Of a DNA stretch of 42,459 nt, positions 17,484 through 23,790 are shown in pieces. Source of the stretch: Alloprevotella sp. (lineage in GTDB: Bacteria > Bacteroidota > Bacteroidia > Bacteroidales > Bacteroidaceae); NCBI GenBank assembly GCA_051868815.1, contig JBJEAH010000116.1, forward strand, positions 1 to 42,459, given 5' to 3'. Each line of letters opens with the position of its first letter. Position 1 is the first letter of the stretch. The translations under genes were made by a program, and so were the position numbers. The notes under the pieces are model-generated. The model did not search any database. It saw only the letters and a list, made by a program, of their open reading frames with translations, and was not told where the DNA came from.

Positions 17484-17627
17484 AGCAATTTCTATTGAAA
17501 TATAACTTTTGTAAGGCAATAAACTCCCATTATCCTATATGATAGGCCGTAAAACCCGCGCAGCGGCAGCGCGGCAGAGGCGGCGCGTCGCGATTTTCTT
17601 GGCGGAGTGCAGACGCTTCAAAGCAGC

Positions 17628-17851
17628 AATTTTTTATTTTCTCGGAGATATTTTTCACGATCTCCTTGCTATTTTTTCCTCTCCTATAAGAAAGTTTTTG
17701 TTACAAACTTTGTAACACGTATTACAAACTTTGTAACATGTGTTAGAAACTTTGTAACAAGCGTTACAAACTTTGTAACAAACTTTTTCTGCGCAGATAG
17801 TGAAAAATATCAAGGAAAAACAAAAAAATATCTCGGAGATAGTAAAAAATA
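17628..17851. mobile_element. MITE-like element with four 21-bp-phased palindromes, copy 1
   Basis: GTTACAAACTTTGTAAC-type units at 17700, 17721, 17742 and 17763 between long imperfect inverted repeats; second copy at 23453-23688; ends approximate; mobility inferred. Confidence 0.7.
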
Positions 17852-17899
17852 TCAGGCGGCTCGCCAGCGCGTTTCCCCGTGCAGCCGGCGGCGGAATGC

Positions 17900-18148
17900 C
17901 GGGACAAAGACGCAGTAAGGGCTGAGATAGAGCAGTCTGCTCCAAAGGCCCTGAAGCCCCGCGAGATAATCCACGACCCTTTTATCCTTGAGTTTCTTGG
18001 AATTAAGCAGGGCGAGCATTTGTAGATTTTCGGCTGCGCTCGGCAATTAGAGCAAGCTCTATTGCACTCGCTTGCACAAAAATTCCTGAAAGGCGACCTT
18101 CAGCAGATGCTGATCAGTAAGTTGCAGCACTTCCTGCTGCAACTGGCA
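17900..18148 (+). pseudogene. DUF1016/YhcG (PDDEXK nuclease-like) fragment interrupted by a 63-nt insertion
   Basis: RDKDAVRAEIEQSAPKALKPREIIHDPFILEFLGIKQGEH [insertion] FLKGDLQQMLISKLQHFLLQL resembles the YhcG DPY.LEFLG...DLE..LI..LQ.FLLELG region; no start codon, stop inside the insertion, C-terminus missing. Confidence 0.8.
18024..18085. mobile_element. 62-bp palindromic element, copy B, inserted in the DUF1016 remnant
   Basis: Homologous to 2867-2928; hairpin TAGAGC-AA-GCTCTA; separates two in-frame halves of a coding remnant. Confidence 0.85.
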
Positions 18149-18368
18149 AACAGTATTGCATCGAGAATTAGGCTGCGCTATAGCTTTCGCCCCGAGAAAT
18201 GCCTCCACATGACTATGCAGGGAGATTGGTGGCACGCTGCAAACCATCTCTCCCAAATGTCCTTGAATATTGTTGATAGTGCAGCCGAGGCCGTTATCAG
18301 GGATATCGAGAGCAATAAGGTAATGTAGGGCGATTTTTTGCTTAAAACAAAACTTTTATAGCAAATAG

Positions 18369-18399
18369 TTTGCTTTTTGCTCGGAATGTGCTACATTTG
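18369..18399 (+). promoter_or_regulatory. Sigma-A promoter of the Phe/Tyr operon
   Basis: TTTG-N19-TACATTTG. Confidence 0.78.
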
Positions 18400-18441
18400 C
18401 AAGCGAAAAGCAATCGTTCTACCAATAGAATAGGCGCATTT

Positions 18442-18492
18442 ATGGCATACAACGCACAGTTTTTCGGCTTTTACTTTTACTTTGCTCAGTAA
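18442..18492 (+). CDS. Phe/Tyr-rich attenuator leader peptide MAYNAQFFGFYFYFAQ
   Basis: ATG GCA TAC AAC GCA CAG TTT TTC GGC TTT TAC TTT TAC TTT GCT CAG TAA: 5 Phe + 3 Tyr in 16 codons, between the promoter and a terminator upstream of pheA. Confidence 0.88.
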   Translation: MAYNAQFFGFYFYFAQ

Positions 18493-18544
18493 AGCGAAGC
18501 GGGAAAACGCGTGCCAAACATAACATTTGACCATACAACAATTC

Positions 18545-18580
18545 AATCCCGCTTCCTAAGAAGAAGCGGGATTTTTGTTT
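18545..18580 (+). terminator. Attenuator terminator upstream of pheA
   Basis: AATCCCGCTTC-CTAAGAA-GAAGCGGGATT then TTTGTTT; the 5' arm can alternatively pair with GAAGCGGGA at 18496-18504. Confidence 0.88.
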
Positions 18581-18595
18581 TGAAATAATATAGGC

Positions 18596-19426
18596 ATGAA
18601 AAAGATAGCCATTCAGGGCATTCGCGGTTCGTTCCACGACATTGCCGCCCATCAGTATTTCAAAGGAGAAGAGTTGAGGCTCGTGTGCTGCGACACGTTC
18701 GAGGACGTGTTCCGGCAGATGCGCTCCGACAGCGCCTGCCTCGGTATGGTGGCGATTGAAAACACCATAGCCGGCAGCCTGCTCCACAACTACGAACTCC
18801 TGCGCGAGAGCGGCATGAGCATTGTGGGAGAGCACAAGCTGCACGTAGAGCACAGCCTGCTGTGCCTGCCCGAAGACACGGCCGAGGATATTCGAGAAAT
18901 AAATTCCCACCCCGTGGCCCTTGCGCAGTGTCGCCGCTTCCTGTCGGAAAAGCGCGGGGCAAAACTCGTGGAAACCGACGACACGGCCGGCGCTGCGGAA
19001 CAGATAGCCCGGGAGCAGTTGCGCGGGCACGCCGCCGTGTGCCACGCCGATGCGGCCGATATCTACGGCCTGAAAGTCTTGGCGCGGGGCATAGAGGACA
19101 ATAAGCACAACTTCACGCGCTTTCTCGTGCTGGCAGATCCCTGGCAGGCCGAGGCGGTGCGGCAGCAGGAAGAGGCCGACAAGAGCAGCATCGTCTTTGC
19201 CCTGCCCCACGAGGAAGGCTCCCTCTCGCAGGTACTCAGCATTTTCAGTTTCTACAAAATAAACCTCACCAAGATCCAATCTTTGCCCATCATAGGTCAC
19301 GAATGGGAGTACCTGTTTTATGTGGACGTGGTGTACGGCGACAGCCTGCGCTTCCGGCAGAGCATCGACGCGCTGCGCCCGTTGACCCGCGCGTTGAAGA
19401 TTTTGGGAGAATATAAAGGCAAGTAA
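18596..19426 (+). CDS. pheA: Prephenate dehydratase
   Basis: IAIQGIRGSFH, AIENTIAGS, SHPVALAQC, NFTRFL and ACT-domain INLTKIQS motifs. Confidence 0.95.
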   Translation: MKKIAIQGIRGSFHDIAAHQYFKGEELRLVCCDTFEDVFRQMRSDSACLGMVAIENTIAGSLLHNYELLRESGMSIVGEHKLHVEHSLLCLPEDTAEDIREINSHPVALAQCRRFLSEKRGAKLVETDDTAGAAEQIAREQLRGHAAVCHADAADIYGLKVLARGIEDNKHNFTRFLVLADPWQAEAVRQQEEADKSSIVFALPHEEGSLSQVLSIFSFYKINLTKIQSLPIIGHEWEYLFYVDVVYGDSLRFRQSIDALRPLTRALKILGEYKGK

Positions 19427-19428
19427 AT

Positions 19429-20607
19429 ATGGACGCATTACGCAAACCGCAGCCCGCCGACCGCCTGAGCGGCGTGAGCGAATACTATTTTTCAAGAAAA
19501 CTCAAAGAGGTGGCCCAGATGAGGGCGCAGGGCGCAGACATCATCTCGCTCGCCATAGGCAGCCCCGACTTGCCGCCTTCGCCCGAAACGGTGGAAACGC
19601 TCTGCCGCGAGGCGAAACGCCCCGACGGGCACGGCTACCAGCCCACGATGGGCACGAAAGAACTGCGCACCGCCATGGCAGGCTTTTATAGCCGCTGGTT
19701 CGGCGTGACGCTCGACCCCGACCGGGAAATCCAGCCGCTCATCGGCTCGAAGGAGGGCATACTCCACGCCACGCTCGCGCTGGCCAACGTGGGCGACAAG
19801 GTGCTCGTGCCCAATCCCGGCTATCCCACTTACACTTCCCTCTCTAAACTCCTTGGCTGCGAGGTGGTGCCCTACAACCTGCGCCCCGAAAACGGCTGGC
19901 AGCCTGACTTCGAAGAACTCGAACGCCTAACCGACGACAGCCGCGTGCGTATCCTCTGGATGAACTACCCGCACATGCCCACCGGCGCGGCGGCGCAGCG
20001 CACCACGTACGAGCGGGCGGTGGAACTGGCGCGGCGCAAGGGCTTTGTCGTCGTCAACGACAATCCTTACAGCTTTATCCTTTCCTCTGAGCGGCAGAGC
20101 ATCTTGCAAGTGCCCGGCGCAAAAGACTGCTGCATCGAACTCAACTCCATGAGCAAGAGCCACAACATGCCCGGCTGGCGCGTAGGCATGCTTGCCTCGA
20201 ACGCCGAGTTTGTAAGTTGGGTGCTTAAAGTAAAGAGCAATATCGACTCGGGCACCTTCCGCGCCTTGCAGCTCGCGGCAGCCACGGCCTACGACAATGC
20301 CGCCGCCTGGCACGAGGAACACAATATATATATATACGCGCGACGCCGCCGCTTGGCGGAAGCTATCATGGAGGCACTCGGCTGCACCTTCGACCCCGCG
20401 CAGGTGGGCATGTTCCTTTGGGGGCGTATTCCCGAAGGTATGGGCAATGCCGAGCAGCTTACGGAGCGCGTGCTGCACGAGGCGCACGTGTTTCTCACGC
20501 CCGGCTTTATCTTCGGCAGCAATGGCGACCGCTACGTGCGCATCTCGCTTTGCGCCTCCGAAGAAAAGCTCCAGGAAGCCCTGCAACGGATTAACGCAAT
20601 TCACTGA
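19429..20607 (+). CDS. PLP-dependent aminotransferase class I/II (likely aromatic amino acid pathway)
   Basis: GSKEG, PNPGYPTY, NYPHMPTG, DNPY and SMSKSHNMPGWRVG motifs; position in the operon. Confidence 0.9.
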   Translation: MDALRKPQPADRLSGVSEYYFSRKLKEVAQMRAQGADIISLAIGSPDLPPSPETVETLCREAKRPDGHGYQPTMGTKELRTAMAGFYSRWFGVTLDPDREIQPLIGSKEGILHATLALANVGDKVLVPNPGYPTYTSLSKLLGCEVVPYNLRPENGWQPDFEELERLTDDSRVRILWMNYPHMPTGAAAQRTTYERAVELARRKGFVVVNDNPYSFILSSERQSILQVPGAKDCCIELNSMSKSHNMPGWRVGMLASNAEFVSWVLKVKSNIDSGTFRALQLAAATAYDNAAAWHEEHNIYIYARRRRLAEAIMEALGCTFDPAQVGMFLWGRIPEGMGNAEQLTERVLHEAHVFLTPGFIFGSNGDRYVRISLCASEEKLQEALQRINAIH

Positions 20608-20667: not shown

Positions 20668-21738
20668 ATGGAACTCAATATTACTCCTTTATCGCTGCCC
20701 GGCATAGAGATGCAGCGTCCGCTAATCATAGCCGGCCCCTGCTCGGCCGAAACGGAAGAACAGGTAATGAATACAGCGTGCCAACTGGCAGGCAAGGGCG
20801 TGCGCATCTTTCGCGCAGGCATCTGGAAACCCCGCACCAAGCCCGGCGGTTTTGAGGGCGTGGGCGAAATCGGCTTGCCTTGGCTCACGCGCGTCAAGAA
20901 GGACACGGGGTTGCTCGTGGCAACCGAAGTGGCCACGCCGCAGCACGTCGAGGCGGCACTGGCGGCAGAAGTAGATATCCTCTGGATAGGCGCACGCACC
21001 GTGGCCAATCCCTTTGCCATGCAGGCCTTGGCCGACGCGCTGAAAGGTACAGACGTGCCTGTTTTTGTGAAAAATCCCGTCAATCCCGACCTCGAACTGT
21101 GGATCGGCGGCATAGAGCGGCTCAACGGCGCAGGCATCACGCGCTTGGCCGTTATCCATCGCGGCTTTTCTTCTTATGAGAAACGCCTGTACCGCAACAC
21201 GCCGATGTGGCATATACCCATAGAATTGCGCCGCCGCATTCCCAATCTGCCCATCTTCTGCGACCCGAGCCATATCGGCGGTGTGCGCGAACTGATCGCC
21301 CCGCTTTGCCAGCAGGCCATGGACCTCGGTTTCGACGGCCTGATGGTGGAAAGCCATTGCACCCCCGACTGCGCATGGAGCGACGCGAAGCAGCAGGTCA
21401 CGCCCGACGTGCTCGACTTTATCCTCTCAAAACTCGTGGTCCGCGAGCTTGCACCCACCACCGAAAGCCTTGAAGTGATGCGCCGCCACATCGACGAAAT
21501 CGACAACAACCTTATGGAACTCCTTGCCAAGCGTATGCGCATCAGCCGTGAAATAGGACAGTATAAATTGGAACACAACATGACCGTCGTGCAAACGCGC
21601 CGCTACAACGAAATCCTCGACAAGCGCGGCGCACAAGGCGTGCTCTGCGGCATGGCGCCCGAATTTGTGAAAAGCATCTTTGAGGATATTCACGAAGAAA
21701 GCGTGCGCCAGCAGATTGAATTGATGAATAAGAAATAA
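20668..21738 (+). CDS. Bifunctional DAHP synthase (class I beta) / chorismate mutase
   Basis: IAGPCSAE, RAGIWKPRT, WIGART and DPSH motifs plus C-terminal CM domain RRHIDEIDNNLMELLAKR; start at 20668. Confidence 0.93.
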   Translation: MELNITPLSLPGIEMQRPLIIAGPCSAETEEQVMNTACQLAGKGVRIFRAGIWKPRTKPGGFEGVGEIGLPWLTRVKKDTGLLVATEVATPQHVEAALAAEVDILWIGARTVANPFAMQALADALKGTDVPVFVKNPVNPDLELWIGGIERLNGAGITRLAVIHRGFSSYEKRLYRNTPMWHIPIELRRRIPNLPIFCDPSHIGGVRELIAPLCQQAMDLGFDGLMVESHCTPDCAWSDAKQQVTPDVLDFILSKLVVRELAPTTESLEVMRRHIDEIDNNLMELLAKRMRISREIGQYKLEHNMTVVQTRRYNEILDKRGAQGVLCGMAPEFVKSIFEDIHEESVRQQIELMNKK

Positions 21739-21751
21739 AGCAATAACTCCC

Positions 21752-22537
21752 ATGCGCATACTTATTCTCGGAGCCGGCAAGATGGGCTCTTTCTTTACAG
21801 ATATCCTTAGTTTCGACCACGAGACGGCGGTCTTCGACACCGACCCCAAGCGGCTGCGCTTCATGTACAACACGCAGCGGTTCACTTCCGAGGAAGAAAT
21901 CAAAGCCTTCCGCCCCGAACTCGTGATCAACGCCGTGTCGCTTAAGTACACCTTAGACGCGTTCCGCAACGTGCTGCCGCTCCTGCCGCAGGACTGCATC
22001 TTGAGCGACATTGCGTCCGTCAAGACCGGGCTGAAAGACTTTTACGAAGCCAGCGGCCGCCGCTACGTCTCGACCCACCCGATGTTTGGCCCCACCTTTG
22101 CCAACCTCGGTGCGCTCCACGATGAGAACGCCGTGATTATCACCGAGGGCGACTACATGGGGCGCATCTTCTTCCGCGACCTCTATAAGAACCGCCTCGG
22201 ACTGAACGTGTGTGAATACACTTTTGAGGAGCACGACGAAACGGTGGCCTATTCCCTAAGCATTCCCTTCGTTTCCACGTTCGTCTTCTCGGCGGTGATG
22301 AAGCATCAGGACGCGCCCGGCACAACCTTCAAGCGGCACCTGCGCATCGCCCGCGGCGTGCTCGGCGAGGACGACTGCCTGCTGCGCGAAATCCTTTTCA
22401 ATCCCTACACCATTGGGCAGGTGCGTAAGATCGGCAGCGAGATGGAAACGCTCGCCCACCTTATTGAGCAGAAAGATGAGGAAGGACTCAATGCCTTTAT
22501 CCGACGCATTAGAAAAAATGTGTGCGAGGGCAAGTAG
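21752..22537 (+). CDS. tyrA: Prephenate/arogenate dehydrogenase
   Basis: GAGKMG Rossmann motif, DIASVK, THPMFGP, EEHD. Confidence 0.93.
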   Translation: MRILILGAGKMGSFFTDILSFDHETAVFDTDPKRLRFMYNTQRFTSEEEIKAFRPELVINAVSLKYTLDAFRNVLPLLPQDCILSDIASVKTGLKDFYEASGRRYVSTHPMFGPTFANLGALHDENAVIITEGDYMGRIFFRDLYKNRLGLNVCEYTFEEHDETVAYSLSIPFVSTFVFSAVMKHQDAPGTTFKRHLRIARGVLGEDDCLLREILFNPYTIGQVRKIGSEMETLAHLIEQKDEEGLNAFIRRIRKNVCEGK

Positions 22538-22551
22538 GGGCTTTATGATAC

Positions 22552-22589
22552 AAGAAGAGAGGAATGTCATGCGACATTCCTCTCTTCTT
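22552..22589. terminator. Bidirectional terminator between tyrA and rpmA
   Basis: Perfect 17-bp stem AAGAAGAGAGGAATGTC-ATGC-GACATTCCTCTCTTCTT between convergent genes. Confidence 0.85.
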
Positions 22590-23452: not shown

Positions 23453-23688
23453 GCAAGATATTTTTCATTATTCCCGAGCAAAATCTTACTTTCTGCCTGC
23501 AATTTTTTCCTATCCTATAAGAAAGTTTTTGTTACAAAGTTTGTAACATGTATTACAAACTTTGTAACATGTGTTAGAAACTTTGTAACAAGCGTTACAA
23601 ACTTTGTAATAAACTTTTTCTTATAGGATAGTGAAAAATATCAAGAAGAAAGGGAAAATTATCTCGGAGAAAGTAAAAACTTTCTTGC
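23453..23688. mobile_element. MITE-like element with four 21-bp-phased palindromes, copy 2
   Basis: Units at 23531, 23552, 23573 and 23594; perfect inner IR TATCCTATAAGAAA (23511-23524)/TTTCTTATAGGATA (23617-23630) within ~75-bp imperfect IRs. Confidence 0.72.
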
Positions 23689-23790
23689 GGATAATGGGAA
23701 TTGTGTGCTAAGAGCCTTGGGAGTGCGGCGCGGCACAATTGCGCTTCCCAGGTATAAGAAGTTGCGTGCTAAGATGAGTTTGATTGCTAG

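What the first reader, a model, noticed from the sequence alone, without database searches (positions are those of the whole stretch)
18369..18596. Unannotated dual Phe/Tyr leader-peptide attenuator controlling the pheA-aminotransferase-DAHP/CM-tyrA operon
Seen: a canonical promoter (TTTG-N19-TACATTTG) is followed by a 16-codon ORF MAYNAQFFGFYFYFAQ (18442-18492; 5 Phe, 3 Tyr) and four mutually exclusive pairing segments. Segment 1 (GTTTTTCGGCTTT, 18459-18471) lies on the Phe codons and pairs with segment 2 (GAAGCGGGAAAAC, 18496-18508). Segment 2 pairs with segment 3 (TCCCGCTTC, 18547-18555), forming an antiterminator. Segments 3:4 form an 11-bp terminator with a U-tail 15 nt before pheA. Established: this is the architecture of E. 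coli pheL/trpL ribosome-mediated attenuation. Inference: one leader senses both end products of an operon that makes both amino acids. I know of Trp attenuators in Bacteroidetes but do not recall a characterised combined Phe+Tyr one.
Basis: partly seen in the sequence, partly recalled or inferred. Interest (0 to 1): 0.8.

Follow-up and report, generated by a model that had tools for sequence, protein, structure and literature searches.

The report
Phe/Tyr leader-peptide attenuator before pheA
A 16-codon mini-gene packed with phenylalanine and tyrosine codons, followed by competing RNA hairpins, sits in front of this gut bacterium's Phe/Tyr biosynthesis operon and likely switches it on when either amino acid runs short; the mechanism is a textbook one already predicted in relatives, and the new point is that the tyrosine codons drop out in lineages where the first gene has split away from the tyrosine-making genes.

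Summary
A Phe/Tyr-rich leader precedes pheA in 155 of 162 family, 76 of 85 other Bacteroidales and 24 of 27 other Bacteroidia loci, in 0 of 40 from other classes, and before 13 of 1325 control genes. Antiterminator and terminator sequences change together (own pair -10.7, swapped -5.8 kcal/mol, n=90), 9-14 nt past the last aromatic codon in 174 of 206. Dual sensing has comparative support: where pheA has neither tyrA nor DAHP/CM behind it, 5 of 5 leaders have at most one Tyr in the run, against 1 of 158 with tyrA; tyrA units of such genomes carry their own 4-6 Tyr leader. Nothing was tested at the bench. It is not new in kind: an attenuator was predicted for this operon in B. thetaiotaomicron (2005), its parts are listed in a 2020 supplement, and the Flavobacterium homologue is annotated as a leader-peptide attenuator (2021). 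This scan also reported it on other DNA several times. Trp co-sensing is not supported.

The parts
18369..18399 (+). Bacteroidota-type promoter: TTTG, 19 nt, TACATTTG
   Evidence: Sequence. A TAnnTTTG box lies within 150 nt of the leader start in 227 of 255 leaders against 8.6% of shuffles; 102 also have TTTG 19-21 nt upstream. Consensus recalled; activity here untested.
18404..18405 (+). Predicted transcription start
   Evidence: Inferred by analogy: the mapped B. thetaiotaomicron BT_3936 start lies 5 nt after the TAnnTTTG box (PMC7366714 supplement).
18442..18492 (+). Leader ORF, 16 codons, MAYNAQFFGFYFYFAQ; control run at codons 7-14
   Evidence: conserved in 255 of 274 Bacteroidia loci.
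18453..18492 (+). Segment 1 (core 18459-18471 on the Phe codons), pairs with segment 2
   Evidence: segment 2 pairs back onto the leader codons with P>0.5 in 186 of 206 loci.
18496..18508 (+). Segment 2, switch strand, 12 nt after the last Phe codon
   Evidence: spacing 9-14 nt in 174 of 206 loci.
18547..18555 (+). Segment 3, shared by antiterminator 2:3 and terminator 3:4
   Evidence: own versus swapped pairing test.
18545..18581 (+). Intrinsic terminator: 11-bp stem 18545-18573 and U-rich tail to 18581
18596..19426 (+). pheA, prephenate dehydratase
   Evidence: PF00800 E 1.8e-57; best NCBIfam PRK11898, 213.6 bits against a cut-off of 219.
19429..20607 (+). PLP aminotransferase class I/II; aromatic role inferred from position only
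   Evidence: PF00155; no NCBIfam cut-off met among the 25 best shown.
20668..21738 (+). DAHP synthase I fused to chorismate mutase
   Evidence: PF00793 and PF01817.
21752..22537 (+). tyrA, prephenate dehydrogenase
   Evidence: PF02153 E 6.8e-9.
22552..22589 (.). 17-bp hairpin closing the operon, between tyrA and the convergent rpmA
   Evidence: rpmA by NCBIfam.

Best explanation
This is likely a classical ribosome-mediated transcription attenuator that is predicted to read the supply of both charged tRNA-Phe and charged tRNA-Tyr and so control the four-gene Phe/Tyr operon behind it. A ribosome follows RNA polymerase over the 16-codon leader. With both amino acids plentiful it reaches the stop codon and covers segment 2; segments 3 and 4 then form the terminator and transcription ends near 18580. 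If Phe or Tyr is short, it stalls in codons 7-14, which breaks helix 1:2 but leaves segment 2 free; 2:3 forms before segment 4 is made and polymerase reads on into pheA. With no ribosome, 1:2 forms and the terminator follows. Shown: the sequence parts, their conservation, matched change of segments 2, 3 and 4, fixed spacing, and the link between Tyr codons and operon content. Computed: which helix is open at each ribosome position. Inferred and untested: translation of the leader, termination, stalling, and response to each amino acid.
For: Ribosome-walk folding of RNA that ends before segment 4: 2:3 has P about 0.97-0.99 with the A site on codons 3-14 and drops to 0-0.01 from codon 15 or 16 on; with no ribosome 1:2 has P 0.88. 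Prevalence 155/162, 76/85, 24/27 against 0/40 and 13/1325. Terminator in 206 of 255 by a strict search plus 44 of the other 49 by a relaxed one. 2:3 helix mean -13.5 against -4.2 kcal/mol shuffled, better than all 20 shuffles in 183 of 206. Own versus swapped 2:3 pairs in 90 non-family loci: -10.7 against -5.8; best of 5000 permutations -6.9. The GCGGG core of segment 2 is read in three frames (59, 23, 13) or lies past the stop (22), so the RNA and not the peptide tail is conserved (117 of 206 have this core). Inside the runs Leu (4), Cys (5) and His (2), one base change from Phe or Tyr codons, are rare beside Ser 71, Gly 58, Ala 57. 253 of 255 runs hold both Phe and Tyr. Split operons: at most one Tyr in 5 of 5 against 1 of 158. 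A sixth Phe-only leader is in a genome where neither tyrA nor Phe hydroxylase was found. The six lie on separate branches of a pheA tree. Eight tyrA-DAHP/CM units that lie apart from pheA each have their own leader with 4-6 Tyr. B. thetaiotaomicron has a mapped start 213 nt upstream of pheA with the sORF and terminator inside.
Against: No direct evidence of termination or translation. On the full-length leader the terminator wins (P 0.99) at every ribosome position, so the switch works only if 2:3 is kept kinetically. Any stall on codons 2-14 frees segment 2, so the folding test does not single out Phe or Tyr. The B. thetaiotaomicron terminator is listed with 'coverage decrease FALSE'. The split-operon group is small (5, one of them added by hand below my threshold) and kin are not independent, so the Fisher p values (6.7e-9; 5e-7 outside the family) overstate. 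Six further pheA loci that lack both partners have no scored leader (G340, G311, G135, G156, G453, G257). No Tyr-only leader was found before 7 tyrA genes lying apart from DAHP/CM. One leader with tyrA behind it has one Tyr (G255), and G225 keeps two Tyr although neither tyrA nor Phe hydroxylase was found there (94% complete). Runs were defined by F/Y/W richness, so raw F and Y counts are partly circular.
Confidence: 0.88

Rival explanations
1. It is an attenuator, but it senses Phe only; the Tyr codons are U-rich fillers kept for RNA pairing or to limit Phe over-sensitivity.
For: Phe-only leaders exist and look complete. The last aromatic codon is Phe in 226 of 255. The F. psychrophilum homologue is filed under phenylalanine biosynthesis. 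No experiment separates the two.
Against: Tyr codons pair less with segment 2 than Phe codons (0.23 against 0.34). 249 of 255 runs keep two or more Tyr. Tyr is lost where the tyrosine-feeding genes leave the operon and kept in the leader that goes with them. Three genomes with no tyrA over the cut-off but with Phe hydroxylase keep 3-4 Tyr.
Confidence: 0.06
2. The nascent aromatic peptide acts in the ribosome tunnel and senses free amino acid (TnaC-like arrest peptide), or is a small hydrophobic protein; this would explain the tolerated Trp residues.
For: Trp occurs in 25 of 255 runs, more than Leu, Cys or His, and is not tied to trpA (16 of 69 against 1 of 10; hand tally) nor more paired than Phe (0.35 against 0.34). 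The C-terminal pattern YFYF is well kept.
Against: The hairpin geometry makes stalling in the run anti-terminate; arrest by abundant amino acid would induce a biosynthetic operon when it is not needed. Order of F and Y varies freely, length varies, and the tail is read in three frames.
Confidence: 0.03
3. A protein- or ligand-controlled terminator, or a constitutive weak terminator, with an incidental U-rich ORF.
For: 13 of 1325 control upstream regions also pass the sORF threshold, one being this locus. The terminator dominates at equilibrium.
Against: An open frame with start codon and in-frame F/Y run is kept in 255 of 274 loci across Bacteroidia, at ribosome-footprint distance from segment 2.
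Confidence: 0.03

Closest known systems
Flavobacterium psychrophilum pheA-aspC3 5' element THC0290_N_0195 (PMC9723704; passages and supplementary file 8 row 24 seen)
   Same: Same gene, same class of bacteria; annotated as 'leader peptide attenuation element' with a 27-aa F/Y/W-containing peptide, terminator and mapped start 172 nt upstream of pheA. Most likely the homologue.
   Different: Filed under phenylalanine biosynthesis; no mention of Tyr sensing in the row seen; no functional test reported there.
B. thetaiotaomicron pheA > hisHb > aroA-aroQ > tyrA putative attenuator (PMC1173090 Table 7 and section 36 passage) and BT_3936 5' UTR (PMC7366714 supplements)
   Same: Same four-gene operon. 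The 2020 supplements list the start site, sORF_00347, a weak Rfam Phe_leader hit (E 6.8e-4) and terminator_01669.
   Different: Listed as separate automatic predictions; the main text passages searched do not discuss them. In the passages seen the 2005 paper names no leader peptide.
E. coli pheL-pheA attenuator, Rfam RF01859 Phe_leader (PMC3082878; abstract start and passages seen)
   Same: Short leader with Phe codon run, alternative hairpins and intrinsic terminator before pheA; same predicted logic.
   Different: pheL senses Phe alone. This leader has alternating Phe and Tyr and heads an operon with tyrA and DAHP synthase/chorismate mutase. It does not reach the Rfam threshold: no hit at E<=10 here; 28-30 bits against 55 in 3 of 7 relatives.
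Corynebacterium glutamicum aroF leader (PMC4046766; passages seen)
   Same: Predicted attenuator leader with Phe-Tyr-Phe before a DAHP synthase gene: a printed precedent for mixed aromatic codons.
   Different: Other phylum, three codons only, other operon; no sequence relationship tested.
Multivalent leaders thrL (Thr/Ile) and ilvL of E. coli (recalled, no call); Bacteroid-trp motif RF01692 (table row seen in PMC2864571)
   Same: One leader reading two or more amino acids is an established design; Trp leaders are catalogued in Bacteroidetes.
   Different: Other amino acids and operons. No Rfam family covers the Bacteroidia pheA leader.

Membership tests
Classical leader-peptide transcription attenuators | Short 5' ORF with a run of codons for the operon's end products | tested here: met
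   5 Phe + 3 Tyr in 16 codons before a Phe/Tyr operon; 255 of 274 Bacteroidia loci.
Classical leader-peptide transcription attenuators | Intrinsic terminator between leader and first gene | tested here: met
   250 of 255 loci. Sequence level only.
Classical leader-peptide transcription attenuators | Mutually exclusive 1:2, 2:3 and 3:4 helices kept through sequence change | tested here: met
Classical leader-peptide transcription attenuators | Stalled ribosome frees segment 2, finished ribosome covers it | tested here: met
   Computed only: switch falls at codon 15-16; spacing 9-14 nt in 174 of 206.
Classical leader-peptide transcription attenuators | Short terminated transcript in vivo | tested here: inconclusive
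   Only assembled contigs were available; they cannot show ends.
Classical leader-peptide transcription attenuators | Read-through depends on leader translation and on Phe/Tyr limitation | not testable with these tools
   Needs reporters or Term-seq/Ribo-seq under limitation.
Rfam RF01859 Phe_leader | Score at or above the gathering threshold (55 bits) | tested here: not met
   No hit at E<=10 in the window; 28.1-30.4 bits in 3 of 7 related loci.
Trivalent Phe/Tyr/Trp leader (relatives only) | Trp codons in the run go with Trp biosynthesis | tested here: inconclusive
   Trp in 16 of 69 trpA-positive and 1 of 10 trpA-negative genomes (hand tally); the window's leader has no Trp and trpA was not found in its 88.6% complete genome.

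The most novel reading that the evidence does not exclude
The Bacteroidia leader is one ancient attenuator module whose codon content is re-tuned, repeatedly and independently, to what the operon behind it makes: Phe+Tyr for the full operon, Phe only when pheA splits off or Tyr synthesis is lost (six branches), a duplicated Phe+Tyr copy for the departing tyrA-DAHP/CM unit, and Phe+Tyr+His in one genome where pheA-aminotransferase-DAHP/CM runs into hisG and two His codons occupy the switch position. Leader codons could then be used to read pathway output and gene function across the class.
Probability: 0.5. Interest if true: 0.55.

Novelty: new member of a known kind. Interest (0 to 1): 0.33.

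Why it matters
Bacteroidales are dominant gut bacteria, and this switch would explain how most of them control Phe and Tyr synthesis. It is near-universal in the class sample, has no Rfam family, and I found no experimental test, although B. thetaiotaomicron makes one easy. The split-operon comparison turns 'senses both' from a guess into a claim with evolutionary support and supplies natural Phe-only controls. It does not change how attenuation is understood.

Tried and rejected
Rfam scans: no family at threshold. RNA runs: 4 of 24 listed were laid; all are contigs. Three bridge leader and pheA and begin at 18338-18351, upstream of the predicted start, so DNA or upstream read-through cannot be excluded; one piece stops matching at 18584 but runs on unlike; no conclusion drawn. 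Trp co-sensing: no link to trpA; explanation by RNA pairing also weak (Trp paired 0.35 against Phe 0.34; a YCGR core in 13 of 21 Trp and 23 of 69 other leaders); left open. Tyr-only leader before lone tyrA: none convincing in 7 loci. Relatives of the His-codon genome: its family holds 2 genomes and the other has no pheA match, so conservation could not be tested. A maximum-likelihood tree did not finish; the tree used is FastTree with weak deep support. No covariance model or alignment-based pair count was built; an alignment-free swap test was used instead. Literature: 10 searches found no experimental study of this leader. PMC10994844 main text has no 'attenuat' or 'leader'; 9 of its 20 supplements were not searched. 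Lopatovskaya et al. 2010 (Mol Biol 44:128) was seen only as a reference and is not held; from recall it predicts pheA attenuators and covers Bacteroidetes, so it may already describe the Phe/Tyr leader. PMC2659441, PMC4833913 and PMC13759103, PMC12125101 (passages) added nothing on this leader.

Full report
Observation. The leader folds better than 200 of 200 shuffles (z -3.79) into 1:2 plus 3:4. The genes behind it are prephenate dehydratase, an aminotransferase, DAHP synthase fused to chorismate mutase, and prephenate dehydrogenase, closed by a 17-bp hairpin. Titles of the nearest named relatives point to Alloprevotella/Prevotella-like Bacteroidales. No Rfam family reaches its threshold.

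Conservation. I collected pheA loci from genus, family, order and phylum searches (and the fetches 22-26, 32, 35, 36). This is a subset: of the family and phylum matches I took the best-scoring ones plus a hand-picked spread. 358 loci reduced to 334 genomes or records, 318 with distinct upstream sequence; 4 with under 250 nt upstream were dropped. A sORF of 8-45 codons with at least 6 F/Y/W in 10 residues lies within 450 nt of pheA in 155 of 162 family-level loci (this group includes the named records, whose family I did not verify), 76 of 85 other Bacteroidales, 24 of 27 other Bacteroidia and 0 of 40 loci of other classes. In the window's own genome 13 of 1325 long ORFs pass, one being this locus. 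253 of 255 runs hold both Phe and Tyr. Codons one change away (Leu 4, Cys 5, His 2) are rare within runs.

RNA switch. A terminator follows in 206 of 255 leaders by a perfect-stem search and in 44 of the other 49 by a relaxed one. A segment complementary to the terminator's 5' arm lies 9-14 nt after the last aromatic codon in 174 of 206; its helix averages -13.5 against -4.2 kcal/mol for shuffles. In 90 loci outside the family, each segment-2 window pairs better with its own terminator arm (-10.7) than with those of other loci (-5.8; best permutation mean -6.9); shared ancestry inflates this somewhat. Segment 2 pairs back onto the leader codons in 186 of 206. The leader reads the conserved core of segment 2 in three frames or stops before it, as the window's does, so selection there is on the RNA. 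In the window, blocking bases under a ribosome leaves 2:3 open for A-site codons up to 14 or 15 and closes it after that; but once segment 4 exists the terminator wins at equilibrium in every case, so the switch has to be co-transcriptional, and any stall in the leader would open 2:3.

Does it sense both amino acids? Split operons give a natural test. Among loci with a leader, those where pheA has neither tyrA nor DAHP/CM within at least 3 kb downstream have at most one Tyr in the run in 5 of 5 cases; those with tyrA in view do in 1 of 158; those with DAHP/CM but no tyrA in view in 2 of 25; 69 loci with short downstream sequence were set aside, none with under two Tyr. Two Phe-only leaders below my threshold (G375, G267) were added by hand. 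G267 keeps DAHP/CM in the operon, but neither tyrA nor Phe hydroxylase was found in its 99% complete genome. The six Phe-only leaders sit on separate branches of a FastTree pheA tree with weak deep support. In eight genomes where tyrA and DAHP/CM lie apart from pheA, that unit has its own leader with 4-6 Tyr and 3-8 Phe; for example G297 has MTRFFTHFFFFFTQQ before pheA and MNNTFGYYAFYYYFFYNN before tyrA. Three genomes with no tyrA over the cut-off but with Phe hydroxylase keep Tyr codons. Against: six further pheA genes lacking both partners have no scored leader, no Tyr-only leader was found before 7 separate tyrA genes, G255 has one Tyr with tyrA present, and G225 keeps two Tyr with no Tyr route found. 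The pattern fits 'Tyr codons are kept when the operon feeds Tyr', and was partly refined after seeing the data.

Trp and His. 25 of 255 runs contain Trp. This is not linked to trpA (16 of 69 against 1 of 10, hand tally) and pairing explains it only weakly; it stays open. One genome (G225) has the leader MKNINKFYFYIHHPAT, with the last His codon 13 nt before segment 2, ahead of pheA-aminotransferase-DAHP/CM-hisG. It is a single case, co-transcription with hisG is not shown, and no relative was available.

Expression. Public RNA runs were available only as contigs and do not show ends. In B. thetaiotaomicron a primary start is mapped 213 nt upstream of BT_3936, and the supplements list the F/Y sORF, a weak Phe_leader hit and a predicted terminator marked without coverage decrease (PMC7366714).

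What is known. PMC1173090 Table 7 lists a putative attenuator before this same operon in B. thetaiotaomicron. PMC9723704 annotates the F. psychrophilum pheA 5' region as a leader-peptide attenuation element. PMC4046766 predicts a Phe-Tyr-Phe leader before C. glutamicum aroF. Multivalent leaders such as thrL are textbook (recalled). Lopatovskaya et al. 2010 could not be read and may hold the same prediction. Ten searches found no experiment on this leader. Earlier reports of this scan describe the same element in other Bacteroidales genomes; they are not independent support, and in the lines shown none mentions the split-operon pattern.

Verdict. Real, well conserved, very probably a classical attenuator (0.88), probably reading both Phe and Tyr. 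It works like pheL/trpL but is not a member of Rfam Phe_leader by score. It is a new member of a known and already predicted kind. Interest 0.33, carried mainly by the split-operon evidence and the His-codon lead.

Noticed in passing
L225 (G225:C705), about 140 nt upstream of pheA: Leader with two His codons at the switch position, ahead of pheA-aminotransferase-DAHP/CM followed by hisG; possible Phe/Tyr/His leader. Single genome.
   Followed up: partly
L359-L362, L369, L376, L380, L381: Second copies of the leader in front of tyrA-DAHP/CM units in genomes where pheA lies elsewhere.
   Followed up: yes
L180, L194, L272, L274, L282, L332, L337, L346 and L362/L384: Two aromatic-rich sORFs in tandem; 25 of 255 loci were flagged, many look like chance, these look like true doublings. 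Terminators of the second copy not checked.
   Followed up: partly
L070 (Alloprevotella sp. OH1205), upstream of pheA: The leader has a one-base shift in the F/Y run and reads in frame into pheA; assembly error or true fusion.
   Followed up: partly
window 18017-18090: About 60-nt dispersed repeat with 50 blastn matches in the own genome and high depth in RNA-run contigs; REP- or MITE-like, not characterised.
   Followed up: no
window 17625-17855 and 23457-23690: About 225-nt repeated element with internal inverted symmetry and 21-nt periodic units, 211 blastn pieces in the own genome; MITE-like, not characterised.
   Followed up: no
L253, L254, L259 (family genera g41, g45): These carry a divergent, longer pheA (30-36% identity) with no leader, perhaps acquired from another phylum.
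   Followed up: no
L171, L172, L181, L192, L270, L276 and others: In many non-family Bacteroidales the leader heads a longer operon with aroB, aroD and aroC after DAHP/CM.
   Followed up: partly
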